Part shown: positions 5,000 to 22,751 of the stretch, one piece after another | How positions within the stretch are numbered: position 1 is the stretch's first letter | Layout of the letters: each line of letters begins with the position of its first letter | Assembly: GCA_035390665.1 (NCBI GenBank) | Contig: DAOOUC010000002.1 | Coordinates: 92,143 to 124,142, forward strand | DNA from: an archaeon | GTDB taxonomy: Archaea > Iainarchaeota > Iainarchaeia > Iainarchaeales > CSSED10-239 | Reading direction: 5' to 3' | DNA: 32,000 nt | Made by a program: the position numbers and the translations under genes | The notes under the pieces: generated by a model | Told to the model about the DNA's origin: nothing | Databases searched by the model: none | What the model saw: only the letters and a program-made list of their open reading frames with translations

Positions 5000-5830
5000 A
5001 TGAGCTTATTTATGAATAAAAATATTTTAGTCTTAATCTCGGTATTATTAATGTCTAGTTATATTTATGCATCAAATATTACAGTTTCTTTTCCAGAAAA
5101 TATAACTTTAGTAAATAATCCTGTTTCTGTAGAACTTTATGTTTATAATGGTTCTAATTCTTCAGAATTAATAACTTTAACCTCTTATATTTCTCCTTTT
5201 CCAAGCTCTTTTTCAGAAAATCAATTTAGACTATCACCAAATGAATCCAAAAGAGTAACAGTTACAATTTCTCCATTAAATGATTATTTAGAGTCAGTAT
5301 ATAGTTCAAGTATAGAAATAAAATCAGCTAATTATTATAATAAACAAACATTTAATATTATTCAAAAAACCAATAGAATATGTTCTATTGATTTACAGTA
5401 TTTTGTAATGTATGTTCCTTCTTCTGAGGAATATAAATTAGAATTAATACTAAAGAATAATTCTATAGTAAATAAAGATATAGAAATTATTGGTTTAAAA
5501 GACATTAATCTTTCAGATGAGATAGGAATTGTTGAAATATCAGGCAAAACAGAGGTTTCTACAGTAAGATTGTTTAAAACAGAAGAAAGAAATGTAATTT
5601 TAGAATATAGATGTAATGGCTTATTTGGCAAAAAAGAAATAGAATTACCTGAGAAAAAGACCCCAATAGATATTAAAACAGGATTTACTGGTTTATTTTC
5701 ATTCATTGGTTCTGTAAATCTAGGTAATTTCTGGGATTCTTTATTATTTCAAATAATTTTAATAATTATTTTAATTATTCTAGTCTTGTCTTTTTCAACA
5801 AGATACATAAAATATATTTATAAGAGATGA
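5000..5830 (+). CDS. Secreted, C-terminally membrane-anchored beta-sandwich surface protein (function unknown)
   Basis: Sec-type signal peptide (NKNILVLISVLLMSSYIYA/SN), many N-x-S/T sequons, and strand-like alternating patterns. The C-terminal motif KTGFTGLFSF is followed by a TM helix and the basic tail RYIKYIYKR. Confidence 0.6.
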   Translation: MSLFMNKNILVLISVLLMSSYIYASNITVSFPENITLVNNPVSVELYVYNGSNSSELITLTSYISPFPSSFSENQFRLSPNESKRVTVTISPLNDYLESVYSSSIEIKSANYYNKQTFNIIQKTNRICSIDLQYFVMYVPSSEEYKLELILKNNSIVNKDIEIIGLKDINLSDEIGIVEISGKTEVSTVRLFKTEERNVILEYRCNGLFGKKEIELPEKKTPIDIKTGFTGLFSFIGSVNLGNFWDSLLFQIILIIILIILVLSFSTRYIKYIYKR

Positions 5831-7698
5831 TTTATATGCAAAAAAAAATAATTGATTATCAAGATAAAAATACAAAGCAAGCTAATAATAAATTAAGATA
5901 TTTATTAGTGGGTTTTTTCATTTTATTGGTTTCCGTATTTAGTGTAAGATATATTTTTGCTTCAGATATTGAATTAGAATTTGATAAGCAAACATATTCT
6001 GTAATGGAAGGATCAAGCACAAAAATTGGGTTTACAATCTACAATAATTCTGAATCAAAATTAAATCTTTTATTGTGGGCAGATTGTGATGATGAGGATG
6101 AAGAACTAAGTTGTAATTATTCTCAAAGAATAATAATGCATGGAAACTCAACTCAAACAAGTTCTTTTTATGTTACAGGAAGAGAAGATTCATCAACAGA
6201 TCTTACAATTTATGTAAATGAGTTAGATTCAGATAAAATAAATGAATATTCAGTAGATATAGATGTTATTGATGATGAAGAAGACGGAGAATTTGAAATA
6301 GAAGTATATAATTCAAGTATTTGTATTGGAAAAACTAACAAAATGACATTTGAAATAAACAATAATGCAAGTGATGGATTATATAATTTATTTTTAACAA
6401 GTGATAGATTAGAAATAAATTCAGAATATTCTAATCCTGTTTATTTAAGAAATGAAAAAGAAATAGATTATTATGTTTTTGTTCCAGAAAACACAGAAGA
6501 AGGACAAGTTTTTAATTTAAGATATACTATAGAAGATAATGAGATTTTAGAAACAAAATCAATATCAGTATATGCTAGAAATTGTCCAGATACTTTTGTT
6601 GATTTTAGTGTAACTGGTCCAACAACTATCTCTTATAATATAAATAAAAATGAAGAAAAGGTTGTAAACTATACAATAAAAAACAATTCAAATAGCAATA
6701 AAACAATATATATTTCAGAAGAACATACAGAAGATAAAATAGAAGTAAATATTTCTCAAAGAACAATTGTTTTATCTCCAAATGCTTCAAAGACAATAGA
6801 TGTAAAGATTAAAACAACAGAAGACATTAAATCTGGAAGCTATGATTTAAGTTTAAATTTCTTTGATGGGATAAACAATATTAATAAAAAAGTAAAATTA
6901 CTTGTTAACCCAGAACATAGTATTGAAGTAGAAACATTAAATGGTATAAGTCAGACATTAATAATTGGTCAAAATTTAGAGTTGCTTTTAATTATAAAAA
7001 ACAAAGGAGATATAAGAGATGAGTTTACAGTAACTACTACGGTTGATAATGATGTAAAAGTAAGAACAACAGAAAATAGCTTTTCTGTTTATCAAAATAG
7101 CACTGTTCCTTTCTCAATGGTTTTATCTTCAGGAAGTAGAACACAAACAGGATATGCCTATTTAAATGTAAAAATTCAAGGAAAAGATAGTGATTTCTAT
7201 AAAGAAGTTAATTACATTATTAATGTAATAAGAGACACACCAGTTGCTGGATTAGAAATATTATCTTATCCAAGAGAAATAAATGTTGTCCCAGAAAGCA
7301 ATCAAGAAGTGGATTTTATTTTGAAAAATATTACTAATTCAAAAGTAATAATTGATTATATAGAATTAACAGATGCCTCTCAAGAGATAACAATAATTGC
7401 CCCAAGAGATTCAGTTATAGAACCACAAAATACAAAGACTATAAAAGTAAAGTTTGATATAGGCGACATAAAAGAAAATCAAAATGCAAAAATAAGATTT
7501 GTTACAAGAAATGGGGGAATTTTAGAAAGACAAATTAAATTCAATATAGATGATGGGCAAGAATTAGATTCAGATAGTAAATCAGGAATAACAGGATTTT
7601 TGTCTTTAAAAAATTCTATATTTACTGGCATAATTGTAGTATGTTTAGCAATAATCCTATTATTTGTATTAGGAATATTTAAGACAAAAAAAATTTAG
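5827..7698 (+). CDS. Large multi-domain surface protein (about 5-6 Ig/CARDB-like beta-sandwich repeats), C-terminally anchored
   Basis: ATGA overlap with the upstream gene. N-terminal signal/anchor (LLVGFFILLVSVFSVRYIFA/SD). Repeated ~100-aa units of the type xVxFxIxNxSxxxxxIxI...LxPxxSKTIxVKI. Acidic insert DCDDEDEELSC. C-terminal KSGITGFLSL plus a TM helix and KTKKI. Confidence 0.6.
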   Translation: MIYMQKKIIDYQDKNTKQANNKLRYLLVGFFILLVSVFSVRYIFASDIELEFDKQTYSVMEGSSTKIGFTIYNNSESKLNLLLWADCDDEDEELSCNYSQRIIMHGNSTQTSSFYVTGREDSSTDLTIYVNELDSDKINEYSVDIDVIDDEEDGEFEIEVYNSSICIGKTNKMTFEINNNASDGLYNLFLTSDRLEINSEYSNPVYLRNEKEIDYYVFVPENTEEGQVFNLRYTIEDNEILETKSISVYARNCPDTFVDFSVTGPTTISYNINKNEEKVVNYTIKNNSNSNKTIYISEEHTEDKIEVNISQRTIVLSPNASKTIDVKIKTTEDIKSGSYDLSLNFFDGINNINKKVKLLVNPEHSIEVETLNGISQTLIIGQNLELLLIIKNKGDIRDEFTVTTTVDNDVKVRTTENSFSVYQNSTVPFSMVLSSGSRTQTGYAYLNVKIQGKDSDFYKEVNYIINVIRDTPVAGLEILSYPREINVVPESNQEVDFILKNITNSKVIIDYIELTDASQEITIIAPRDSVIEPQNTKTIKVKFDIGDIKENQNAKIRFVTRNGGILERQIKFNIDDGQELDSDSKSGITGFLSLKNSIFTGIIVVCLAIILLFVLGIFKTKKI

Positions 7699-9949: not shown

Positions 9950-10024
9950 AGGCCGGTAGCATAGTTTGGATAGTGCACAAGCCTCCTAAGCTTGGGATCG
10001 CGGGTTCGAATCCCGCCCGACCTG
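9950..10024 (+). tRNA. tRNA-Arg (anticodon CCT)
   Basis: Manual cloverleaf. Acceptor AGGCCGG/CCGACCT. U8 A9. D arm GCAT-AGTTTGGATA-GTGC. Anticodon arm CAAGC-CTCCTAA-GCTTG (C34 C35 T36). Variable loop GGATC. T arm GCGGG-TTCGAAT-CCCGC. Discriminator G. CCA is not encoded. There is one C4/A69 mismatch in the acceptor stem. An A/T-rich TATA-like box (ATTTAAAAA, 9921-9929) lies about 25 nt upstream. Confidence 0.85.
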
Positions 10025-14286: not shown

Positions 14287-14443
14287 GTTATATCGTCTCC
14301 TTATGTTTAATAAAAATAATAATTAAATAGATTACCTATGTAATTTTAAATGTAATATATAGTCTAATTAGAATTTAGATATATTTAAATAATATATAAT
14401 TTATAGTATATATAGGTTTTTAAATATATTTTTGGTGGAAAAA

Positions 14444-15058
14444 ATGGTTTGGTTAAATTTTCTTGAGTCTATTGATTTTTTAAAAAAAAATAATATTAAA
14501 GTTTTGGATTATAAGATTATTGATTCAAAAGAAAAACTAGAATATTATAAAGATTTTCCATATGTCTTAAAACTAAGTTCCAATCTTTTACATAAAACTG
14601 AAGAAAAAGCAGTAATCACAGATATTTATTCAAAGGAGTCTTTGTTTTCTGCATATAATCACCTTTCTTCAATTTTAGAAAAACATAAAATCAAAGGGAA
14701 AATAATTCTTCAAAAACAAGTAAAAGGTTTAGAATTAATTATTGGAATTAACAAAGATGAACAGTTTGGAAAAGTCATTTTATTTGGTCAAGGCGGAATA
14801 TACACTGAAGTTTTAGATGATACAAGTATAAGAATACTTCCAATAGAAAAGAAAGAAATACAAGAAATGATATTTTCAACAAGGGTAAGTAAATTATTTT
14901 TTGCAAGAGGAGTAATTTATGATACAAAAGAATTAATTGATTTGATTGAAAATATTTCTAAAATTTCAACTAAGGTTTTAGAATTAGATTTAAATCCTGT
15001 AATTCTAACAAAAGAAGGATTATACATTGTTGATGCAAGAGTTAAGCTAGAGGAATAG
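14444..15058 (+). CDS. ADP-forming acetyl-CoA synthetase beta-subunit-like ATP-grasp protein (orphan, no alpha subunit nearby)
   Basis: GLELIIGINKDEQFGKVILFGQGGIYTEVLDDTSIRILPIEKKEIQEMI and ELDLNPVIL...VDARVKL match the ACD beta-subunit pattern (compare P. furiosus [40 protein letters not shown]). The ORF-track start at 14432 is TTG. ATG 14444 is preceded by GGTGG (14434-14438) at SD-like spacing. Confidence 0.75.
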   Translation: MVWLNFLESIDFLKKNNIKVLDYKIIDSKEKLEYYKDFPYVLKLSSNLLHKTEEKAVITDIYSKESLFSAYNHLSSILEKHKIKGKIILQKQVKGLELIIGINKDEQFGKVILFGQGGIYTEVLDDTSIRILPIEKKEIQEMIFSTRVSKLFFARGVIYDTKELIDLIENISKISTKVLELDLNPVILTKEGLYIVDARVKLEE

Positions 15059-15063
15059 ACACT

Positions 15064-15999
15064 ATGTCATATAATTTAGATTTAAACACAAGTTTTCGTA
15101 AAAGAAAGCAATCTCCTAAGAGATACTGGCAATTTGTTTCTAAAAATAATCTTTTGGGAACAGCAATAACCGAAGATGCGAAATTAAATCCAAAAAAAGC
15201 ATATTTTGATTTGTATGCTGTTAAACCTAAAGGCAAAATATTAATTCCAGGAGTAACAATATCAACAGATTCTGGAGATGTTGTTGTCTATGCCCCATTT
15301 GAAGAAATTTATGATTATGGGGTAATCTATGAAGATAATGTATCCATAAAAAGAATATATGATCTTTGTGAAAGAAAGGGGTATCTAATGTCAATAGCTC
15401 ACCCATTTGGACTAATAAATAATTCTGCAAGTTATATGATGGGGTTATCAAAACTTGAAAAATTTATTAAAGAAAAAAATGTAGGGGTGGAAGCATATAA
15501 TGGAAGAATTGGATATCTTTCTTATTATATGTATGATTCTTATTTTTTAAAAACAATTAGGGATTTTTTATGGTATATTCAAGCACACAAAACATTCAAG
15601 TTACTTGGGTTATCTAAATTTGCAAATAAATTAAATCACAAAATAGATCAAAAAAGTTATGACATGGTATATAAATTTGCAGCAACAATAAAGTTATCTC
15701 AATCAGCTAATTTTATAACAGCCGGTTCTGGAACAGATTATGTTGATAGAATAGGGAGCGGTGTTGTTACCATAGATTTACCAAAATCTTTTTTTGAGGA
15801 AACAAATATTTCTCAAAACCAAATACTACTTAACAAGATTTCAAAAAAAGAAATAATCTCTTTTGGACCACCAGGAAAATATACTGATGAATTGTTTGAG
15901 AGATCAACAGCAAGAATAACCAAATTAAAAGCATATGATGATTTAGTATATCTTACAAAAACAGCTTTTAAGATTGAAAAAAAAGAAAAAAAGAAGTAA
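15064..15999 (+). CDS. PHP-domain-like protein with substituted metal ligands
   Basis: Order of PHP-like blocks: FDLYAV (in place of DLHxH), ILIPGVTIS (in place of GxE), SIAHPFG (AHP retained), VGVEAYNG (xEvxN retained), AGSGTDYVDRIG (in place of GSDAH...G). The assignment comes from remembered family patterns only. Confidence 0.5.
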   Translation: MSYNLDLNTSFRKRKQSPKRYWQFVSKNNLLGTAITEDAKLNPKKAYFDLYAVKPKGKILIPGVTISTDSGDVVVYAPFEEIYDYGVIYEDNVSIKRIYDLCERKGYLMSIAHPFGLINNSASYMMGLSKLEKFIKEKNVGVEAYNGRIGYLSYYMYDSYFLKTIRDFLWYIQAHKTFKLLGLSKFANKLNHKIDQKSYDMVYKFAATIKLSQSANFITAGSGTDYVDRIGSGVVTIDLPKSFFEETNISQNQILLNKISKKEIISFGPPGKYTDELFERSTARITKLKAYDDLVYLTKTAFKIEKKEKKK

Positions 16000-16000
16000 T

Positions 16001-16732
16001 ATGTTTTTTATTTATCCAATGGTGTTTTTAACAATAATTTGTTTATTTTATCTAGTCTATGAAGATTTAAGAACAAGAGAAATAAATACTATTCCTATTT
16101 ATATATTATCAGGTATTGGTTTAATTTATAATTTATATTTTGGATTTTTATATAATTTCTGGAAATTATATATTTTACAATTATTAATTGTTTTAATATT
16201 TTTAATAATAATTTATTTATTAGGCAAAATAACTATTTATGCATATATTGGAGAAGGAGATTTGTTAACAATAATGATGATTTCTTTTACTAGCGGATAT
16301 TCTGTTTTATTTTCTGAATTTGTATTTTTACTGGCTCTTTTCTTTATGTTATTTATTCCATTGATTTTCTTAGTATATAATTTATTAAAAAAGAACTATC
16401 CATCAAAAAAAATAAATAATAGATTTTCTTTAATGTTTTTAGGATTTCCGGTTTCTGTTTCAAAACTAAATAATTTCTTTACTCCGTTAGAGGAATATAA
16501 ATTGAAAGACGGAAAAATCGAAAATAGTATTTTAATTAAACCTAATTGTGATTCTGAAATCCAAATACAAAAGATAAAGGAAATAGCAATACAATATAAT
16601 ATAAAAAAAATATGGGCCTCTCCATTAATTCCATTTGTCTGGCCAATATTTATTGCTTATCTTTTATTATTATTTTTCTTAATTTTAAGCAAATTGAATT
16701 TCTTTGGATTTTTTGCAACTCTATTTATTTAG
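16001..16732 (+). CDS. Archaeal prepilin/preflagellin peptidase (A24 family, FlaK/PibD-like)
   Basis: First catalytic Asp context VYEDLRTREINTIP and second catalytic motif YIGEGDLL (GxGD). Multiple TM helices with a soluble insert before the last helices, as in FlaK. The ORF-track start at 15974 is TTG inside the upstream gene. ATG 16001 lies 1 nt after the upstream stop. Confidence 0.75.
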   Translation: MFFIYPMVFLTIICLFYLVYEDLRTREINTIPIYILSGIGLIYNLYFGFLYNFWKLYILQLLIVLIFLIIIYLLGKITIYAYIGEGDLLTIMMISFTSGYSVLFSEFVFLLALFFMLFIPLIFLVYNLLKKNYPSKKINNRFSLMFLGFPVSVSKLNNFFTPLEEYKLKDGKIENSILIKPNCDSEIQIQKIKEIAIQYNIKKIWASPLIPFVWPIFIAYLLLLFFLILSKLNFFGFFATLFI

Positions 16733-16805
16733 TTATTTCAGAACAAATATATATTTATAAACATAATGTACTTATTATTTGCTATAATATATTTAAGTAA
16801 TAAAT

Positions 16806-19172
16806 ATGGTTGAATTAAAAAAATTAAAACAGATTAAAGATAATCATATAAAAGAAAATCAGCATCCTAAATACACCCCGCAAGAGTTGTCTAACTATGA
16901 GCATAAACAAATTACTTTAAAAAAAATTAAAACTCGTGGAGAATCTAATTACATTCCACCAAAATCTGCAATTGTTGAAGAAAAAAAACCAAATTCTATT
17001 AATTCTAAAATCCCTGTTGAGGATTTACAAAATAGAATGATTGAAGAAAATTTATTATTTCAAATAGAGAAAAAAAAGTTAGAAATTATTTCTGATGACC
17101 TTAAAGATAATAATATTTCTAAAGATTATAATTTGATAGATGTATCTGATTCAAATATTGATGATTTGCTTGAGAATCTAAATAAGCAAACTACAAATAT
17201 AGATGAAGATAAACCGTTTTTAGAATCTATATCTTTTTTGGATGATGTTCCAAAAATAAATAAAATTGCGATTCCAAATTTAGATGTTTCTAACCTATAT
17301 GCGAAAATAGATGAAATAGAAAAAAAAAGAGAACAATCAAAAGTAATCCAGACAGAATATCTAAATCAGAATAATCTTAAGAATCCACTACAAAATAATA
17401 ACAAAGAAAAAAAAATAGACATTGTTCCATTAATTGAAAAAATTGAAATTCCAGAAATTATGACTTTAGATGATGATACAAAAATTACAGAATCAATAAA
17501 GAATGATTTTATAAGTTTAGAAAAAAAGGCAGTTACAGAAAAAATAAAAGAATCTAATTTTGTAAATTCTAATAAAGAATTGAAACAAAATCCAGAAATA
17601 GAGAATAGAATAAAAGATATAAAGATAAAAGCAGATAACATTAAAATATCTACGCCTGTAGAATATAAAAAAGAAAATACAAAAATAAAAGAATTAGAAA
17701 AAGTAAATTATATTTTACCTAAAGATTATTTAACTAATAAAGGGCCTGTAGCTTATGATGCAATAAAAAATAAGCAAAAAATTAATTTAATTTATGATTC
17801 AGAAGTTAAATCCAAATCCATAAATAAATCTGAAATTAATGAAAAATACAATATAGATGAATTTACATTTGTTAATATTAATTATAAAGAAAACAGCCTT
17901 TTTTATAATATAATCCAACCAGAATTAACAAAGACACAAGAGGAAACACTTTCTGAAGTAAAAAGGGCGTTTCTAGATTCTATTGATGCAAATTATTATT
18001 CTTTTAAAGGAGATAAACAAGGGATTCAAAGTTATATAAAAAAGATATTTGATTTGACTTTAGAAAAATTATCCTTTGATTTAACAAGCTTAGAAAAGAA
18101 ACAATATTTTAATTTCATAAAACAAGAATTTTCTGGATTGGGATTTTTAGCAAGTATATTAGAGGATAAAAATATAATTGAGGTAAATTGTGGAGGAGTA
18201 GGATTACCAATTATGGTTTATCATACTAAATATGGGTTAATTCAAACTAATTTAAAATTTGAAAAAATGTCTCAATTAAATTTATTTGTATTATCTTTAA
18301 CTAAAGTTATGGGATTAAGGGTAAATTCTTCTCAACCATTAATTAATGGCTATCTCCCAAATGGATATAAAGTTGAAGGATTATATTCTGTAGGAGATAC
18401 AAGTAATAAAGGATCATCCTTTATAATTAAGAAATATTTAGAAGAACCATTAACCCCAAATCAATTAATAAATTTAGGTATAGGTACAATAGATGTCTTT
18501 TCATATATTTGGTGTGCAATAGATCAAAATTATCAGGTCGCAATTACAGGTGGAGATTCTGTACTTTTGATTAATTCTATTGTTCAATTATATCCTAATA
18601 AAAAGATTGCAAGTGTTCAATCTTATGATTATTTTAAATTCCCACAAAAAAATTGGATAAAAAGAATGATACATAATGAGACGGCACTAGATAAGAAAAC
18701 ATTATTATCTCAAACACTTTCTGAAAGGCCAGATTATATTATTGTGGATGATTTTACTAAAGAATTATTTGATACAAAATGGTATGATTATAGTTTAATT
18801 TATGCTGATTCAAATATTATTGGAGAATATATAGAGAAGGTTAAATCTATAGGCACAAATACAATCATCATTTATTTAGATAGAATAAAATCTCGCGATT
18901 TTGAACAAACACAAATATTAAAAATAATAGAAATAGATAAAGGAAAAGAACAAAAAATCATAGAATTTAACATTGATGATGGGAGTTATCATTTTAACTT
19001 AGTGCCTTCTAATATTAATATTGTTGATTTTTTAAAAAAGCAGAAATTACTTAGATGGATATCAGACACAGATATATCTGATTATTTAGATTTTAATAAT
19101 CTAATTAATGATTATTATTTAGATTCTAAAAAATTATTTAACAAATTAAATATAATAGAAAAAGAGCAATAG
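16806..19172 (+). CDS. FlaI/GspE/VirB11-family secretion-ATPase homolog lacking ATPase motifs, with ~345-aa N-terminal extension
   Basis: Residues ~345-788 follow the FlaI block order: YNIIQPELT..; SGLGFLASILEDKNIIEVNCGG..PIMVYHTKYG; QPLINGYLPNGYKVEG..GSSFIIKKY; PLTPNQLI..GT. The P-loop position then reads VAITGGDSVLLINS (expected GxxGSGKTTLLN), and the Walker B position reads RPDYIIVDDF (expected RPDxIIVGExR). No GK[ST] occurs anywhere in the protein. Confidence 0.75.
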   Translation: MVELKKLKQIKDNHIKENQHPKYTPQELSNYEHKQITLKKIKTRGESNYIPPKSAIVEEKKPNSINSKIPVEDLQNRMIEENLLFQIEKKKLEIISDDLKDNNISKDYNLIDVSDSNIDDLLENLNKQTTNIDEDKPFLESISFLDDVPKINKIAIPNLDVSNLYAKIDEIEKKREQSKVIQTEYLNQNNLKNPLQNNNKEKKIDIVPLIEKIEIPEIMTLDDDTKITESIKNDFISLEKKAVTEKIKESNFVNSNKELKQNPEIENRIKDIKIKADNIKISTPVEYKKENTKIKELEKVNYILPKDYLTNKGPVAYDAIKNKQKINLIYDSEVKSKSINKSEINEKYNIDEFTFVNINYKENSLFYNIIQPELTKTQEETLSEVKRAFLDSIDANYYSFKGDKQGIQSYIKKIFDLTLEKLSFDLTSLEKKQYFNFIKQEFSGLGFLASILEDKNIIEVNCGGVGLPIMVYHTKYGLIQTNLKFEKMSQLNLFVLSLTKVMGLRVNSSQPLINGYLPNGYKVEGLYSVGDTSNKGSSFIIKKYLEEPLTPNQLINLGIGTIDVFSYIWCAIDQNYQVAITGGDSVLLINSIVQLYPNKKIASVQSYDYFKFPQKNWIKRMIHNETALDKKTLLSQTLSERPDYIIVDDFTKELFDTKWYDYSLIYADSNIIGEYIEKVKSIGTNTIIIYLDRIKSRDFEQTQILKIIEIDKGKEQKIIEFNIDDGSYHFNLVPSNINIVDFLKKQKLLRWISDTDISDYLDFNNLINDYYLDSKKLFNKLNIIEKEQ

Positions 19173-19174
19173 AT

Positions 19175-20017
19175 ATGTTTGGAAAATTTTTTACAAAGAT
19201 TTCTGAATTCTTCTTTTCAGAGATATCTAAACTTATTGTTCCGAAATTTAAAGAATTATCTAAAACTCTTTCATTTACTGATATTGAAGAAGATGCTCAA
19301 ACATATCTTTCAAATATATTGTTTTTATCTTTCCTTATAGGAATAATCTTAGAATTTTTAATGATTTTTGTAATGCTTAAATTAAATATATTATTTAATA
19401 TTTTTACTTTTGTCTTAACAATAATAATTGCCTTTACCTTTGCAGGGTTAATTTTTATTATATTATATAATTATCCAAAATTTATTTTATTATCTAATAA
19501 AAAAAAGATAGAAGAAGAATTAGAAACAAGCATAAAGCATCTTTCTGTTTTACAGGATAAGAATTTAACTGTGAAAGATGTACTTTACTTATTACAAAAA
19601 ATAGATAATAACAAAATACTTACTGTAGAATCAAAAAGAATATTATCTATGTCTGATTTAAATAAAAATCTTAAAGAAACATTAAAATATATGTGTGATA
19701 ATACCTATTCTGAACAAGAATATAGCTTCTTATCTAAATTAATAGAAGTCTTGGATGGGAAATACAAATTGGATCAAGTAATAAATGAATATTTTTTGTC
19801 TACGGAGCAAACAAGAAAAGAAAAAGAAGAACATCAAAGAAGTAGAATTACCTTGTTATTTGAAATAAATATTTTTTTGTTCTTTTTAATCTTTGTTTTA
19901 ATCTTTAGTGTTTTCTTAATGCCTATATATAGAAATTCAATAAAAGAGATTTTATTTGCTATTGCAATTATTTTTCCAATTATTGAATTAATTTTAATAA
20001 TAATATTAAGTAAGTGA
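19175..20017 (+). CDS. FlaJ/TadC-like membrane platform protein (single T2SSF-like domain)
   Basis: Two N-terminal TM helices, then a ~130-aa helical cytoplasmic segment (EEELETSIKHLSVLQDKNLTVKDVLYLL...LKETLKYM...LSKLIEVLDG) resembling a T2SSF repeat, then C-terminal TM helices. Starts 2 nt after the FlaI-like gene. Confidence 0.6.
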   Translation: MFGKFFTKISEFFFSEISKLIVPKFKELSKTLSFTDIEEDAQTYLSNILFLSFLIGIILEFLMIFVMLKLNILFNIFTFVLTIIIAFTFAGLIFIILYNYPKFILLSNKKKIEEELETSIKHLSVLQDKNLTVKDVLYLLQKIDNNKILTVESKRILSMSDLNKNLKETLKYMCDNTYSEQEYSFLSKLIEVLDGKYKLDQVINEYFLSTEQTRKEKEEHQRSRITLLFEINIFLFFLIFVLIFSVFLMPIYRNSIKEILFAIAIIFPIIELILIIILSK

Positions 20018-20024
20018 AAAATTA

Positions 20025-21155
20025 ATGAGTGTAAATAAAACCACAAATAAAGAAATTAATTTGTTTTTCTATAATCATGAATATACCATCTTAAATATTG
20101 CAGGAATAATTTGTGGTCTTATTATTTTATGGATTGCAAATAACTTTTTTGTTGATAGTAAGATATATTATCTGATATTTATTTTTGGATTGTTAGTTGG
20201 GGGATTTGGTTTTGTTATAGAATATTATATAAAAAATGAAAAACGTAAGTCTTTAGAAACAGAATTTAGTTATTTTTTATATGATTTATCTAAGGAATAT
20301 AAAAAAACAAACAATTTATCTTTAGCATTAACAAATATATCTGAATATAATTTTTATGGAGACATAAATACAGATATAAAAAGATTAGCAAATAGAGTAT
20401 CTTGGGGAGATTCTTTTGAGGATGCATTAGAGTCAATAAATAAAAACATAAATAGTTCTGTTATTATTCACACACTTGTATTACTTAGAGCATTAAAGAA
20501 ATCATCGGTCTCTTATGATATAATTTTAAAGAATATATCCAAGGATCTTAAAATATTTAAAAGTGAAGATCGTTCAAAAAAGTATTTTTCAAATTTATTT
20601 TATTTGTCTTTGGTTTTTTATTTTGTATTTATTTTTGTTTTATTATATATTGACCACATTATTGGTGGAAATTTTCTGTGGAGTAGTAATGCAGAAGTAG
20701 TTACAAGAATATTCTTTGATAATTTTATGCTTTATTTGGCATTGCTTTTAGGGGTTTTTACTGCTTACGTTATGTATTCTATAAAAAAAGACAAAGGCAT
20801 AAATTTTGTTAAATATATTCTATTAATGTTTATAATAACCGTTATCTTATTTCAAATCTTTGCACCAAAACCAGAGGCTGAAAGAATTTTAATAGATACA
20901 ATAGAATATATGATCAAAAATAATGAAACAAAAGTAGAAATAGATAATGCAATTGCATTAAAGACAATAAGTTCTAAATACATTTCTGAAAAAGTAGAGA
21001 CCGAAACTATATATTTTCAACAGGTTGATAATTTAAGTTGTTTCTCTGAAGAATGTAAAGAGTTTACTATCTTTGTTAATGAGCCAGCATTCTATGATTT
21101 TATTATCGAGAAACAAGAAAATAATCATTTTATTATATATTATAAAAAAGTTTAA
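20025..21155 (+). CDS. FlaJ/TadB-like membrane platform protein (single T2SSF-like domain) with extra C-terminal soluble domain
   Basis: TM helices flank ETEFSYFLYDLSKEYKKTNNLSLALTNISE..DIKRLANRVSWGDSFEDALESI, a T2SSF-like pattern (l..fl..L....+aG.sl..Al..i......l..e...i...v..G.s..eAl). The last ~100 aa are non-membrane. Confidence 0.65.
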   Translation: MSVNKTTNKEINLFFYNHEYTILNIAGIICGLIILWIANNFFVDSKIYYLIFIFGLLVGGFGFVIEYYIKNEKRKSLETEFSYFLYDLSKEYKKTNNLSLALTNISEYNFYGDINTDIKRLANRVSWGDSFEDALESINKNINSSVIIHTLVLLRALKKSSVSYDIILKNISKDLKIFKSEDRSKKYFSNLFYLSLVFYFVFIFVLLYIDHIIGGNFLWSSNAEVVTRIFFDNFMLYLALLLGVFTAYVMYSIKKDKGINFVKYILLMFIITVILFQIFAPKPEAERILIDTIEYMIKNNETKVEIDNAIALKTISSKYISEKVETETIYFQQVDNLSCFSEECKEFTIFVNEPAFYDFIIEKQENNHFIIYYKKV

Positions 21156-21167
21156 TAAGAAAAAGAT

Positions 21168-21533
21168 ATGATAAAAAACATTACAAAGAAAAAATTAATA
21201 ATTAGTGATTATAAGATTGCAAATACTGTTTTTTCTAGAGGATTAGGGTTAATGTTTTCCAGAAAATCAAAATTTAATTATGGATTAATATTTGACTTAG
21301 AAAGAGAAACAGTTATTGGAGCAAGTTTGCATATGTTTTTTGTATTTTATCCAATAAATGTAATATTTTTGAATTCAAAAAAACAAATTGTGGATATCAA
21401 AACCGATTTTAGGCCATTTACATTTTATTCTACAAATAAGAAATGCAGGTATATTATTGAATTACCTAAAAAGATTGGATTAAGATATTATTCTTTAAAT
21501 GATAGAATTTCTTGGAAAAACATCAAAAATTGA
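21168..21533 (+). CDS. DUF192 (COG1430) family protein
   Basis: ANTVFSRGLGLMFSRK...GLIFDL...HMFFVFYPINVIFLNSKKQIVDI matches the DUF192 pattern (A.t...R..GLM.R....G.lF......M....pLDiiFld..g.Iv.i). Confidence 0.7.
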   Translation: MIKNITKKKLIISDYKIANTVFSRGLGLMFSRKSKFNYGLIFDLERETVIGASLHMFFVFYPINVIFLNSKKQIVDIKTDFRPFTFYSTNKKCRYIIELPKKIGLRYYSLNDRISWKNIKN

Positions 21534-21649
21534 TGATTTTCTTGTGTTTTTATTATGTAGACTTTGAAAATCAAACTGATTTCTAATTGTTGGTTTAAAT
21601 TAACTACCAGTAACCATATATAAAGATTTTAGGACTATAACATATACAG

Positions 21650-21850
21650 TAATCTATTACCTAGATTTCCACAAAAGAATAAAAGGCAGAAAAGAGGAAG
21701 AGAAGAAACATACTGTTTAACAGGAACAGGTCCCTGTTCTTTTCTTCTTAGAAATTAATTACATTTGTGGCTTAATTGCCCCAAAACCTTTTCCTTCCCC
21801 AAAAGAAGAGGTAAACTAAGGAGCCCAAATGGGCTCAAGTTCTATTTTTA
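21650..21850. ncRNA. Candidate structured RNA or regulatory region, unassigned (boundaries approximate)
   Basis: This is the GC-richer core of a 447-bp ORF-free spacer. A TATA-like ATATATAAAG lies upstream at 21615-21624. One hairpin is GAACAG-GTCC-CTGTTC (21724-21739), followed by TTTTCTTCTT. A second, perfect hairpin is GAGCCC-AAAT-GGGCTC (21821-21836), followed by a T-rich tract (TCTATTTTTATT). Complementary purine and pyrimidine tracts are present. I recognise no known RNA family. Confidence 0.25.
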
Positions 21851-21980
21851 TTAAAAATGTTTTATTTAAATATGTTTCTATATAAATATATTTATAATAA
21901 CTATAATATAAATTCGACTATAGAAAATCACAATCTTTGTGTTTTTAAGCGATTTTTAAAAAATTTCAAGGTGAATAGAG

Positions 21981-22751
21981 ATGGGATTAAGACCAGGACA
22001 TTGTTATTGTCAAAATGTTAAAAAAAGAGCATATTCAAGAATTGCAGTTAAAGTTCATAAAAAGAACTTTATTGGTGGTGTACCAGGATTAAAGATAAGA
22101 CAGTTTCACATGGGTAATGGGAATAGAGCATATACGCATGTAATTCATTTTACTACAAAAAACAAGGTACAGATTAGAGACAATGCAATTGAAGCAGTAA
22201 GACAAAGTGTTGTAAGACAGTTAAACAAGAAATTAACGGCAGTAAACTATTATATGAAAGTAAGAGTTTATCCTCAATTTTTCTTAAGAGAAAACAAACA
22301 AGCACAAGGGGCACACGCAGATAGAATTCAAACAGGAATGAGTCAATGTCCTTTTGGAAAAGTTGTTGGTAGAGCTTCAAGAGTAAGAGCAGGACAGAAA
22401 ATATATAGTGTCTTAGTTGATGAAGCAAATGTTAAATTTGTTAAGGAACTTTTCGAAAGAATGGGTTCAAAGTTCCCTACAGAAATGAAAGTTATTGTTG
22501 AAAAGAATACAGATAATTTAAAGTCTGTTGGAACAGTAAGAAAGAAAAGAAAGATGAAGGAAGAAGAAGAAACAAAAGCCGCAACAACAGAAGCAGCACC
22601 AGCAGCAGGTAAAGATGCAAAAGCAGCAGCTCCTGCAAAGGGCGCAGCTCCAGCTAAAGGTGCAGCACCTGCAAAAGGCGCAGCTCCCGCAGGTAAAGAT
22701 GCAAAAGCAGCAGCTCCAGCAAAGGGCGCAGCTCCAGCAAAGAAGAAATAA
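21981..22751 (+). CDS. rpl10e: Ribosomal protein uL16 (L10e type) with ~70-aa Ala/Pro/Lys-rich repetitive C-terminal extension
   Basis: MGLRPGHCYCQNVKKRAYSRIAVKVHKKNFIGGVPGLKIRQFHMGN is the canonical L10e N-terminus. SD-like GGTGA at 21970-21974 lies 6 nt before the ATG. The core ends near residue 185. The tail is KKRKMKEEEETKAATTEAAPAAGKDAKAAAPAKGAAPAKGAAPAKGAAPAGKDAKAAAPAKGAAPAKKK. Confidence 0.9.
   Translation: MGLRPGHCYCQNVKKRAYSRIAVKVHKKNFIGGVPGLKIRQFHMGNGNRAYTHVIHFTTKNKVQIRDNAIEAVRQSVVRQLNKKLTAVNYYMKVRVYPQFFLRENKQAQGAHADRIQTGMSQCPFGKVVGRASRVRAGQKIYSVLVDEANVKFVKELFERMGSKFPTEMKVIVEKNTDNLKSVGTVRKKRKMKEEEETKAATTEAAPAAGKDAKAAAPAKGAAPAKGAAPAKGAAPAGKDAKAAAPAKGAAPAKKK
22608..22748 (+). repeat. 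In-frame tandem repeat inside the rpl10e 3' end (84-bp duplication made of 18-bp GCAGCTCCAGCAAARGGY-like units)
   Basis: GGTAAAGATGCAAAAGCAGCAGCTCC occurs at 22608 and again at 22692, a period of 84 bp (28 aa). The internal AAPAKG units are encoded by near-identical 18-mers. The segment is visibly much more GC-rich than its surroundings. Confidence 0.85.

What the first reader, a model, noticed from the sequence alone, without database searches (positions are those of the whole stretch)
14444..21533. Pilus-like assembly locus without a pilin gene or a functional motor ATPase
Seven plus-strand ORFs are packed with gaps of 1-73 nt. Four of them are homologs of archaeal type IV pilus/archaellum core parts. 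These are an A24 prepilin peptidase with both Asp motifs intact (16001-16732), a FlaI/GspE-family protein (16806-19172), and two FlaJ/TadBC-like membrane proteins (19175-21155). A DUF192 protein closes the block. Two things do not fit a normal pilus operon. No ORF in or next to the block has a class III (prepilin) signal peptide. The only ATPase homolog has lost all residues needed for ATP binding and hydrolysis (see the separate finding). The peptidase therefore looks active while the motor looks dead. This suggests either trans-activation by an intact paralog elsewhere or repurposing of the scaffold, for example as a static envelope or host-contact structure in a reduced archaeon. This is the strongest candidate for an undescribed system variant in the window.
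Basis: partly seen in the sequence, partly recalled or inferred. Interest (0 to 1): 0.72.

Follow-up and report, generated by a model that had tools for sequence, protein, structure and literature searches.

The report
Pilus module with a dead motor
A small DPANN archaeon (Iainarchaeota) carries a conserved type IV pilus assembly gene set whose motor protein keeps its fold but has lost every ATP-handling motif in all known relatives, so this machine must get its energy elsewhere or work without it.

Summary
Window 16001-21533 encodes an A24 prepilin peptidase with both Asp motifs, a 788-aa FlaI/GspE-fold protein lacking Walker A, Asp box, Walker B and His box, two single-domain TadB/TadC-like platform proteins, and a DUF192 protein. 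No pilin gene lies anywhere in the 32 kb. The first two of the seven ORFs (ATP-grasp, PHP-like) are neighbours, not parts.

This is not decay. All 25 diverse family members share the same substitutions and two deletions. The family is confined to Iainarchaeota/Diapherotrites, plus one distant lineage that keeps the same four-gene core in an unrelated context. Its proteins are about as conserved as neighbouring housekeeping genes.

The missing pilin is specific to this sub-lineage. At least ten related loci carry class III signal-peptide pilin genes directly after DUF192. Related genomes also hold a second module with an intact ferredoxin-domain ATPase and its own platform pair. It is adjacent once, on the same contig once, and in the same MAG once.

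Most likely the dead ATPase is a structural or regulatory ring on its platform, with energy supplied in trans. That step is inferred, not shown. I found no published description. Verdict: new variant of a known kind, moderately high interest.

The parts
16001..16732 (+). A24 prepilin peptidase (FlaK/PibD-like, with archaeal type II C-terminal domain). First gene of the conserved module.
   Evidence: Pfam Arc_PepC_II 40 bits and Peptidase_A24 26 bits; NCBIfam FlaK 1.4e-10. Both catalytic Asp motifs (Y-E/Q-D..RE and IGEGD) are conserved in 13 loci, including the distant L032.
16806..19172 (+). 788-aa FlaI/GspE-fold pseudo-ATPase. It has a K/I/N/E-rich N-terminal extension (residues 1-330) followed by a two-domain core (331-788).
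   Evidence: NCBIfam FlaI 6.5e-35. PDB 2oap 7.5e-36 and FlaI 1e-26. AF2 pLDDT 85.2, pTM 0.82. Foldseek 2oap E 4e-30, TMq 0.77. 33 close homologs. 16 representatives at >=600 bits among 1.84 billion proteins.
16806..17795 (+). N-terminal extension of the pseudo-ATPase. It is low in complexity and variable in length across the family (total protein length 757-1209 aa). It carries short conserved motifs (..ISFLD..PK..KI.., S.LY.K.D.IE, L.E.I.IP.I, DY.LP.D).
   Evidence: Composition K 16%, I 13%, N 11%, E 10%. Per-position conservation. Family lengths.
18408..18437 (+). N2D motif KGSSFIIKKY (residues 535-544), in place of RGSxFTIRKF in active relatives. The Arg at the second position is Lys in 23 of the 25 family members (2 keep Arg), and the first is Lys in 19 of 25.
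   Evidence: Alignment of 25 family members against 12 intact relatives. This is the most conserved stretch of the protein.
18543..18569 (+). Walker A remnant ITGGDSVLL (residues 580-588). No GK[ST]; the P-loop is shortened by 2-3 residues.
   Evidence: Every family member has G-x-D-x. Intact relatives have GxTxxGKT[ST].
18609..18629 (+). Asp-box remnant ASVQSYD (residues 602-608), in place of SIEDTxE.
18732..18755 (+). Walker B remnant DYIIVDDF (residues 643-650), in place of DYI[IV]VGE[VI]RG. The catalytic Glu is absent.
18777..18809 (+). His-box region KWYDYSLIYAD (residues 658-668). There is a 5-residue deletion, and neither His of GH...T.HA remains.
19175..20017 (+). Platform protein a: 280 aa with one T2SSF domain (TadB-like half of a split FlaJ/TadC).
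   Evidence: Pfam T2SSF 28.7 bits; NCBIfam ArlJ/FlaJ 5.8e-11. It is conserved directly after the pseudo-ATPase in all loci except the P0022 lineage.
20025..21155 (+). Platform protein b: 376 aa with one T2SSF domain, five predicted membrane helices and a family-specific C-terminal domain.
   Evidence: Pfam T2SSF 23.3 bits. AF2 pLDDT 83.6. Foldseek PilC 2whn and EpsF 3c1q, TMt ~0.7. 57 homologs with the same narrow distribution.
20796..21155 (+). Last membrane helix plus the ~95-aa C-terminal domain of platform protein b. The domain is one helix and four strands with two conserved Cys. By the positive-inside rule it is predicted to lie outside the cell.
   Evidence: Alignment A3, including the distant L032 (C339 and C344 nearly invariant; FQ..P.P motif). 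Secondary structure of the model. No structural match was found. The topology is my inference.
21168..21533 (+). DUF192 protein (121 aa). It usually accompanies the module but is dispensable.
   Evidence: Pfam 49.3 bits. It travels with the module in L010. It is absent in L032 and L036 and split in L037.
21534..21980 (.). Spacer between DUF192 and ribosomal protein L10e. Most relatives carry one or more pilin genes at this position. Here it holds no ORF and no pilin remnant.
14432..15999 (+). Two upstream neighbours that are not parts of the module: an ATP-grasp_5 protein (14432-15058) and a PHP-like protein (15064-15999).
   Evidence: Both are missing next to the module in L010 and L032, and ATP-grasp is missing in several others.

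Best explanation
This is a chromosomal, vertically inherited type IV filament (pilus) biogenesis module of Iainarchaeota (DPANN). Its PilB/FlaI-type motor has been converted into a catalytically inert but fully folded subunit.

Shown:
- The core module is A24 peptidase, pseudo-ATPase and two TadB/TadC-like platform proteins.
- In most lineages DUF192 follows, and then one or more class III-signal pilin genes.
- In the window's sub-lineage the adjacent pilins are gone.
- All ATP-binding and hydrolysis motifs are replaced by other residues that are themselves conserved.
- Related genomes also carry a second module with an intact ferredoxin-domain ATPase and its own platform pair.

Inferred mechanism:
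- The peptidase matures pilins that are encoded elsewhere in this genome.
- The pseudo-ATPase still oligomerises and docks on its split platform as a structural or regulatory ring. This would be comparable in role to non-hydrolysing accessory rings such as ArlH/FlaH.
- The mechanical work of filament assembly is supplied in trans by the intact ATPase of the second module. Several ATPases likewise take turns on one platform in bacterial type IVa pili.
For: Homology and fold.

The dead site is family-wide and under constraint:
- All 22 close homologs share the same substitutions and deletions, as do all 25 members including 50%-identity representatives.
- 53-60 columns are invariant across the family.
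- The core is as conserved as neighbouring housekeeping genes. Against Ca. Forterrea, the ATPase is 46% identical, compared with NMD3 37%, TrkH 41% and beta-CASP 55%.
- The most conserved stretch is the N2D/linker region used for subunit packing in active relatives.

The module is a unit:
- The order is the same in about 20 loci.
- The module was moved intact to another context in L010.
- The distant P0168 locus L032 keeps A24, pseudo-ATPase, T2SSF and T2SSF among unrelated genes.

It is a pilus-type locus. Homologous ~175-aa proteins with K-[KS]-[AGS]-[IL]-S-[PA]-I-I plus a hydrophobic helix, or longer Laminin_G_3 fusions, lie directly downstream in L003/4, L012-L015, L017, L018, L021, L035-37 and L042/43.

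An intact ATPase is available:
- In L010 it is adjacent (GNTGSGKTT, IGEIR, TFHS).
- On JAQVTI010000004.1 it lies on the same contig and strand, 18.2 kb downstream.
- In GCA_964463155.1 it is in the same MAG as a pseudo-ATPase of the window's own sub-lineage.
- None of the intact modules I inspected carries an A24 peptidase. This suggests that the two modules depend on each other.
Against: - No experiment or co-expression data exist.
- The intact ATPase has its own two platform proteins. It is only ~22% identical to the pseudo-ATPase core. Mixed hexamers are therefore unlikely, and cross-docking is pure inference.
- Co-occurrence is shown for only three genomes or contigs. It is not shown for the window's own genome or for the complete Ca. 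Forterrea genome.
- The P0022 lineage keeps a constrained pseudo-ATPase with no platform genes next to it. That would not be expected if its only role is to sit on that platform, unless those genes have moved.
- Oligomerisation and docking were not modelled.
- Pilin calls rest on the N-terminal signature and gene position. Pfam Pilin_N hits are below threshold.
Confidence: 0.45

Rival explanations
1. Energy-independent scaffold. The pseudo-ATPase ring, the split platform (with its extracellular C-terminal domain) and the peptidase form a static membrane complex. It might be a pilin-processing or insertion station, or an anchor for a short non-dynamic fibre used in host contact. It needs no ATPase at all.
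For: Every catalytic motif is lost, yet the fold and many residues are strictly conserved. The peptidase is always part of this module and of none of the intact modules I inspected. Platform protein b has a conserved, predicted external domain that the small platform proteins of the intact module lack. The window's sub-lineage keeps the module without adjacent pilins.
Against: No type IV filament is known to assemble without an ATPase (established knowledge of the family). Most relatives have pilin genes directly attached to this module, which suggests it builds a fibre. The external location of the C-terminal domain is only a topology inference.
Confidence: 0.22
2. Brake or switch. The pseudo-ATPase is an inactive mimic of the motor. 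It occupies a platform, or binds the active ATPase, and so blocks or times assembly. Its long N-terminal extension, with its conserved short motifs, would act as a regulatory handle.
For: The N-terminal extension is variable in length and low in complexity, but carries short motifs that persist across the family. The packing region is conserved. The two modules are juxtaposed in L010.
Against: A pure inhibitor would not need its own dedicated, co-conserved platform pair and peptidase. There is no evidence of interaction with the intact ATPase, and identity to it is only 22%.
Confidence: 0.15
3. Still an enzyme. The protein binds and hydrolyses a nucleotide, or binds another ligand, through a non-canonical site built from the newly conserved residues (G-x-D, S-[IV]-Q-S-x-D, [VL]-D-x-F, K-W-Y).
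For: The replacement residues are themselves conserved, not random.
Against: The P-loop is shortened and lacks Lys and Thr. The catalytic Glu, the Asp-box acids and both His-box histidines are gone, and the N2D arginines are mostly replaced by Lys (19 and 23 of 25 members). In studied family members a single Walker A or Walker B substitution abolishes function (established knowledge; e.g. Chiang et al. 2008, cited in PMC11656802).
Confidence: 0.06
4. Decaying relic, pseudogene or assembly artefact of an ordinary pilus operon in this one strain.
For: Adjacent pilins are missing in this sub-lineage. DUF192 is decaying in some strains.
Against: The reading frame is intact at 788 aa. A 99% identical copy occurs in an independent assembly. 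The same motif changes occur in more than 25 orthologs at 40-99% identity from many samples. Gene order is conserved across a phylum-level clade.
Confidence: 0.02

Closest known systems
Archaeal type IV pilus loci (ATPase + TadC/PilC + pilins, with PibD/FlaK peptidase; census by Makarova, Koonin & Albers 2016, PMC4858521; e.g. Haloferax PilB3-PilC3)
   Same: The component families are the same: FlaI/PilB-fold protein, T2SSF platform, A24 peptidase and class III-signal pilins in relatives. The C-terminal ~40 residues weakly match Pfam PilB3_C. The nearest intact relatives are long archaeal ATPases with the same C-terminal tail.
   Different: The ATPase has no Walker A, Asp box, Walker B or His box in any member. 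The platform is split into two genes, and the second carries an extra C-terminal domain. The peptidase is inside the module. That paper does not mention Walker motifs, inactivation, DUF192 or DPANN.
FlaI/ArlI archaellum ATPase and Archaeoglobus GspE (PDB 4ihq, 4ii7, 2oap)
   Same: These are the best sequence and structure matches, over both the N- and C-terminal domains.
   Different: Those proteins are active hexameric ATPases. This one is 18-20% identical in structure alignment and lacks all catalytic motifs. No archaellins or FlaF/G/H/X genes lie nearby.
Bacterial Tad/Flp pilus (TadA/CpaF, TadB, TadC, TadV)
   Same: The platform is encoded as two single-domain T2SSF proteins. A dedicated prepilin peptidase lies in the locus. 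CpaF structures are among the matches.
   Different: TadA/CpaF is an active bifunctional motor. No TadZ, secretin or other Tad parts are present. The sequences are archaeal in type.
Non-hydrolysing accessory proteins of type IV filament machines: ArlH/FlaH (RecA/KaiC-like ring under FlaI) and TadZ (ParA-like with atypical Walker A). From my own knowledge, not tested here.
   Same: Each is a nucleotide-binding fold kept as a structural or regulatory part of the machine rather than as the motor. This is what the pseudo-ATPase may work like.
   Different: They belong to other protein families. Here the motor homolog itself is the dead one, and it has its own platform.
PilB / PilT / PilU sharing one PilC platform in bacterial type IVa pili (e.g. 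PMC6821130, PMC6762196)
   Same: This is a precedent for an ATPase encoded elsewhere acting on a platform.
   Different: All three of those proteins are active ATPases. No dead paralog with its own platform is described in the papers I retrieved.

Membership tests
PilB/GspE/FlaI secretion-ATPase superfamily (Pfam T2SSE, PF00437) | Two-domain fold: N-terminal N2D domain plus RecA-like C-terminal domain | tested here: met
   AF2 model pLDDT 85.2. Foldseek 2oap E 4e-30, TMq 0.77; FlaI 1e-28. phmmer against PDB 7.5e-36. NCBIfam FlaI 6.5e-35.
PilB/GspE/FlaI secretion-ATPase superfamily (Pfam T2SSE, PF00437) | Match to the Pfam T2SSE profile | tested here: not met
   No PF00437 hit at E<=1. None of the 33 homologs has a precomputed PF00437 hit, whereas the nearest intact protein, P0034, does.
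PilB/GspE/FlaI secretion-ATPase superfamily (Pfam T2SSE, PF00437) | Walker A GxxGxGK[ST] | tested here: not met
   The motif is G-GDS with a 2-3 residue deletion and no Lys, in the window and in all 25 members.
PilB/GspE/FlaI secretion-ATPase superfamily (Pfam T2SSE, PF00437) | Asp box, Walker B with catalytic Glu, and His box | tested here: not met
   SIEDTxE becomes S[IV]QSxD. VGE becomes [VL]DxF. The His box has a 5-residue deletion and no His.
PilB/GspE/FlaI secretion-ATPase superfamily (Pfam T2SSE, PF00437) | Hexamer formation and ATP hydrolysis | not testable with these tools
   No multimer modelling or biochemistry was available.
Archaeal type IV pilus locus | ATPase-family gene next to a T2SSF (TadC/PilC/FlaJ) platform gene | tested here: met
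   The arrangement is conserved in about 20 loci.
Archaeal type IV pilus locus | Class III signal-peptide pilin genes in or next to the locus | tested here: not met
   The window has none in 32 kb. The feature is met in at least ten related loci directly after DUF192. There, identification rests on the N-terminal signature; Pfam Pilin_N hits are subthreshold.
Archaeal type IV pilus locus | A24 prepilin peptidase with both catalytic Asp residues | tested here: met
Archaellum (ArlI/ArlJ with ArlH, ArlF/G, ArlX or ArlCDE, archaellins) | Presence of archaellin and ArlF/G/H accessory genes around the FlaI/FlaJ homologs | tested here: not met
   The flanking genes are housekeeping: beta-CASP, NMD3, TrkAH, L10e and NDK. 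FlaI and FlaJ equivalog scores are far below the cutoffs (121 against 550; 42 against 550).
T2SSF platform proteins (PF00482) | Cytoplasmic helical T2SSF domain flanked by membrane helices | tested here: met
   ORF5 scores 28.7 bits, above cutoff. ORF6 scores 23.3 bits, just below. The ORF6 model matches PilC 2whn, EpsF 3c1q and OutF 5nbg at TMt 0.67-0.74.
DUF192 (PF02643) | Match to the profile above the gathering score | tested here: met
   49.3 bits against 27. NCBIfam PRK03760 4.8e-27. No known link to pili was found in the literature search.

The most novel reading that the evidence does not exclude
Iainarchaeota run a two-module filament machine. One module supplies the only prepilin peptidase, a split platform with an external domain, and a permanently 'frozen' motor-shaped ring. 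The other module supplies a ferredoxin-domain, possibly redox-sensing, ATPase. The dead ring would act as an obligatory stator or adaptor that lets one motor serve two platforms. Alternatively, it would lock a non-retractile attachment fibre onto a host cell. Either way this would be the first natural pseudo-enzyme of the PilB/FlaI motor family with a defined structural role.
Probability: 0.25. Interest if true: 0.8.

Novelty: new variant of a known kind. Interest (0 to 1): 0.62.

Why it matters
Type IV filament machines are thought to depend on a dedicated hexameric ATPase that turns the platform protein. This is a clade-wide, strongly conserved case in which the motor homolog has lost every catalytic motif, yet it keeps its fold, its own platform pair, the prepilin peptidase and (ancestrally) its pilins.

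If the protein is a structural or regulatory ring, it separates the scaffolding role of PilB/FlaI proteins from their energy-transducing role. It also gives a natural 'dead-motor' complex for structural work.

The organisms are DPANN archaea. A symbiotic lifestyle was predicted for the one named relative, Ca. [quoted passage not shown] Surface filaments are therefore prime candidates for host contact, and this module is a concrete target for enrichment-culture cryo-ET and proteomics.

Tried and rejected
1. Apparent T2SSF_b-DUF192 fusion protein P0324 (494 aa). The gene caller read the TGA stop as Trp ('...KYKWYLMIKN'). This is an annotation artefact, not a fusion.
3. Relaxed constraint in the P0022 lineage, which lacks adjacent platform genes. 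It has 3 changes at otherwise invariant columns, against 0-2 for most members and 7 for P0163. It is not a clear outlier.
4. Finding the intact ATPase on the 813-kb contig of that lineage. The single metagenome scan returned four other contigs.
5. Extending the Ca. Forterrea locus rightwards to look for the intact module.
6. Co-location of P0025 and P0072 on one 63,384-bp contig. It is suggested by equal contig lengths, but the loci retrieved did not overlap. Not counted as evidence.
7. Pfam confirmation of the pilins. Only subthreshold Pilin_N and Arch_flagellin hits were found.
8. Rfam found nothing in the region; the only match is a tRNA at 9950-10024.
9. The PHP-like ORF2 had no PDB sequence match at E<=10.
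10. Literature searches for a natural pseudo-ATPase in type IV systems, for DUF192 with pili, and for Iainarchaeota or Forterrea pili found no relevant description.

Full report
**1. What is in the window**

The window has about 25% G+C. Between 14432 and 21533 lie seven tightly packed + strand ORFs with gaps of 5, 1, 73, 2, 7 and 12 nt. Profile searches identify them as follows:
- ORF1: an ATP-grasp_5 protein.
- ORF2: a 311-aa protein with only a weak PHP/CehA signal.
- ORF3: an A24 prepilin peptidase (Arc_PepC_II 40 bits; Peptidase_A24 26.0 bits against a cutoff of 26.5; FlaK 1.4e-10).
- ORF4: a 788-aa protein that hits NCBIfam FlaI (6.5e-35) but not Pfam T2SSE.
- ORF5 and ORF6: two membrane proteins, each with one T2SSF domain.
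- ORF7: a DUF192 protein.

The peptidase has both catalytic Asp motifs (YEDLRTRE, IGEGD). These are conserved in 13 orthologous loci.

**2. The ATPase homolog is folded but dead**

phmmer against PDB sequences aligns residues 344-651 with Archaeoglobus GspE (7.5e-36) and FlaI (1e-26). In that alignment, GETASGKTT corresponds to G---GDSVLL and IIVGE to IIVDD. An AlphaFold2 model of residues 331-788 is confident (pLDDT 85.2, pTM 0.82). It matches 2oap and FlaI over both domains (Foldseek E 4e-30, TMq 0.77).

I aligned 25 family members against 12 intact relatives. All five nucleotide-handling elements have changed:
- Walker A becomes G-x-D-x with a 2-3 residue deletion.
- The Asp box SIEDTxE becomes S[IV]QSxD.
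- Walker B VGE becomes [VL]DxF.
- The His box is removed by a 5-residue deletion.
- The N2D motif RGSxFTIRKF becomes KGSSF[IV]IKKY.

The replacement residues are themselves conserved.

**3. It is a conserved family, not decay**

The word-indexed search found 33 homologs at 43-99% identity, none with a precomputed T2SSE domain. The exhaustive profile search of 1.84 billion representatives found 16 representatives at 600 bits or more, followed by a sharp drop.

One distant protein, P0168 (232 bits, 30% identical), also lacks the motifs. Every protein I inspected with a lower score has intact ones.

Between 53 and 60 alignment columns are invariant across the family. The most conserved stretch is 501-560, the N2D/linker region. 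The core is 27% identical to intact long archaeal ATPases that share its C-terminal tail. It is only 22% identical to the ferredoxin-domain ATPase of the same clade. It is therefore not a recent copy of that ATPase.

**4. Taxon and gene order**

The genome scan returned 17 loci. They come from MAGs labelled Ca. Iainarchaeum, Ca. ainarchaeum, Ca. Diapherotrites and 'archaeon', plus the complete genome of Ca. Forterrea multitransposorum.

The order PHP-like, A24, pseudo-ATPase, T2SSF_a, T2SSF_b, DUF192 recurs. It is embedded in a syntenic housekeeping region: TrkH/TrkA, NMD3, beta-CASP upstream, then L10e, a methyltransferase and NDK downstream.

Three observations define the real unit:
- In L010 the block from A24 to DUF192 sits in a different context and lacks the PHP-like gene.
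- In the distant L032 locus, A24, pseudo-ATPase, T2SSF (287 aa) and T2SSF (377 aa) stand among unrelated genes, with neither DUF192 nor the PHP-like gene.
- DUF192 is missing in L036 and split in L037.

The core is therefore four genes. DUF192 is a frequent accessory. ATP-grasp and the PHP-like protein are neighbours.

One lineage (P0022; L001, L002, L008) has lost both platform genes from this position but keeps the pseudo-ATPase. Its sequence shows no clear sign of relaxed constraint.

**5. Pilins**

The window has no ORF with a class III signal peptide. This comes from a regex scan over all start codons in six frames and tblastn with relatives' pilins. The 447-bp spacer after DUF192 holds no remnant.

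In the more divergent lineages the same position is occupied by one or more homologous proteins. Their N-termini look like MKK..NKKAISPIISVVLLVLVAAILTGAILSW. Some are ~175 aa and others are long Laminin_G_3 fusions. They occur in L003/4, L012, L013, L014, L015, L017, L018 (Forterrea), L021, L035-37 and L042/43.

Pfam recognises them only weakly (Pilin_N 0.014-0.075). The call therefore rests on the signature and the gene position. The absence of a pilin gene is a feature of the window's sub-lineage (window, L001/2/8, L006, L007, L009, L011), not of the system.

**6. A second, intact module**

In L010 the block is followed directly by three further elements:
- A 596-aa ATPase with an N-terminal 4Fe-4S ferredoxin domain and intact motifs (GNTGSGKTT, IGEIR, TFHS).
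- Two small T2SSF proteins.
- A VTT/DedA protein.

This ATPase family is large (3538 hits at E<=1e-30). It sits in its own conserved locus, next to PRPP synthetase.

Co-occurrence with the pseudo-ATPase is shown three times:
- Adjacent in L010.
- On the same contig and strand, 18.2 kb apart, in JAQVTI010000004.1.
- In the same MAG, GCA_964463155.1. Contig CAYXAY010000004.1 carries a pseudo-ATPase of the window's sub-lineage, and contig CAYXAY010000006.1 carries the intact ATPase.

None of the intact modules I inspected includes a peptidase.

**7. Platform protein b**

Its family has the same narrow distribution (57 proteins). The model (pLDDT 83.6) shows five membrane helices. Its cytoplasmic domain matches PilC, EpsF and OutF.

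It also has a conserved ~95-aa C-terminal domain of one helix and four strands with two nearly invariant Cys. This domain is also present in L032. By the positive-inside rule the domain should face outward. It has no structural match.

**8. Interpretation**

Shown: this is a conserved type IV filament module with an intact peptidase, a split platform, ancestrally linked pilins, and a motor homolog that cannot use ATP by any known route.

Inferred: the pseudo-ATPase still forms a ring on its platform, and the work is done by the intact ATPase of the second module. Rival readings are a static scaffold, a brake, or a non-canonical enzyme. I cannot exclude any of these.

The literature I could search contains no description of such a protein or module. 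Makarova et al. 2016 does not mention Walker motifs, inactivation, DUF192 or DPANN.

**9. Verdict**

This is a new variant of a known kind of system. It is interesting mainly for the family-wide dead motor and its likely dependence on a second module.

Noticed in passing
window 15064-15999: The PHP-like ORF2 has DLNTSF where distant orthologs have DLHTHL or DMHTHL, the first metal-binding HxH motif of PHP domains. Close relatives have DLNTHF or DLNTQF. The window's sub-lineage may therefore carry a second enzyme-like protein with a degraded active site right next to the dead ATPase.
   Followed up: partly
window 20796-21155; alignment A3: Platform protein b ends in a conserved ~95-aa helix-plus-four-strand domain with two nearly invariant Cys and an FQ..P.P motif after the last membrane helix. 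It is predicted to lie outside the cell. No Pfam or PDB match was found. The small platform proteins of the intact module lack it.
   Followed up: partly
L001/L002/L008 10001-12924: In the widespread P0022 lineage (24 contigs, one of 813 kb) the pseudo-ATPase is followed directly by DUF192. Both platform genes are missing from the locus, yet the pseudo-ATPase stays conserved.
   Followed up: partly
L010 4173-13475: The dead-motor module and the intact ferredoxin-domain ATPase module lie head to tail in one co-oriented array: A24, pseudo-ATPase, T2SSF x2, DUF192, Fd-ATPase, T2SSF x2.
   Followed up: yes
L010 10080-11870; P0035-P0154: The intact ATPase of these archaea carries an N-terminal 4Fe-4S ferredoxin domain (Fer4 families plus T2SSE). 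This architecture is shared by a large share of the 120 listed hits, in Iainarchaeota and also in MAGs labelled Micrarchaeota. It hints at redox control of a pilus motor.
   Followed up: no
L036 and L037, 9137-9800: DUF192 is absent (L036) or split into 98-aa and 65-aa pieces (L037) in close relatives of L035. It is therefore dispensable for the module.
   Followed up: partly
L042 21360-21493; L024/L025 several sites: The ~120-nt segments encoding pilin N-termini are 81-86% identical in DNA between paralogous adhesin-like pilin genes (Laminin_G_3, DUF5018 fusions), while the rest of those genes is unrelated. This looks like a shared 5' cassette on a variable set of surface proteins.
   Followed up: no
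window 22578-22751: Ribosomal protein L10e ends in an Ala/Lys/Pro-rich repeat tail (AAPAKGAAPAKG...). It raises local G+C to 0.33 against about 0.25 elsewhere.
   Followed up: no
window 5000-7698: Two adjacent predicted surface proteins (276 and 623 aa) each have an N-terminal signal-like helix, Ig/fn3-like repeats with only weak Pfam hits, and a C-terminal membrane anchor. The larger one is conserved at the same position in relatives.
   Followed up: no
P0324 / L007 14393-14395: A public gene call fuses platform protein b and DUF192 because TGA was translated as Trp. This suggests the MAG was annotated with the wrong genetic code.
   Followed up: yes
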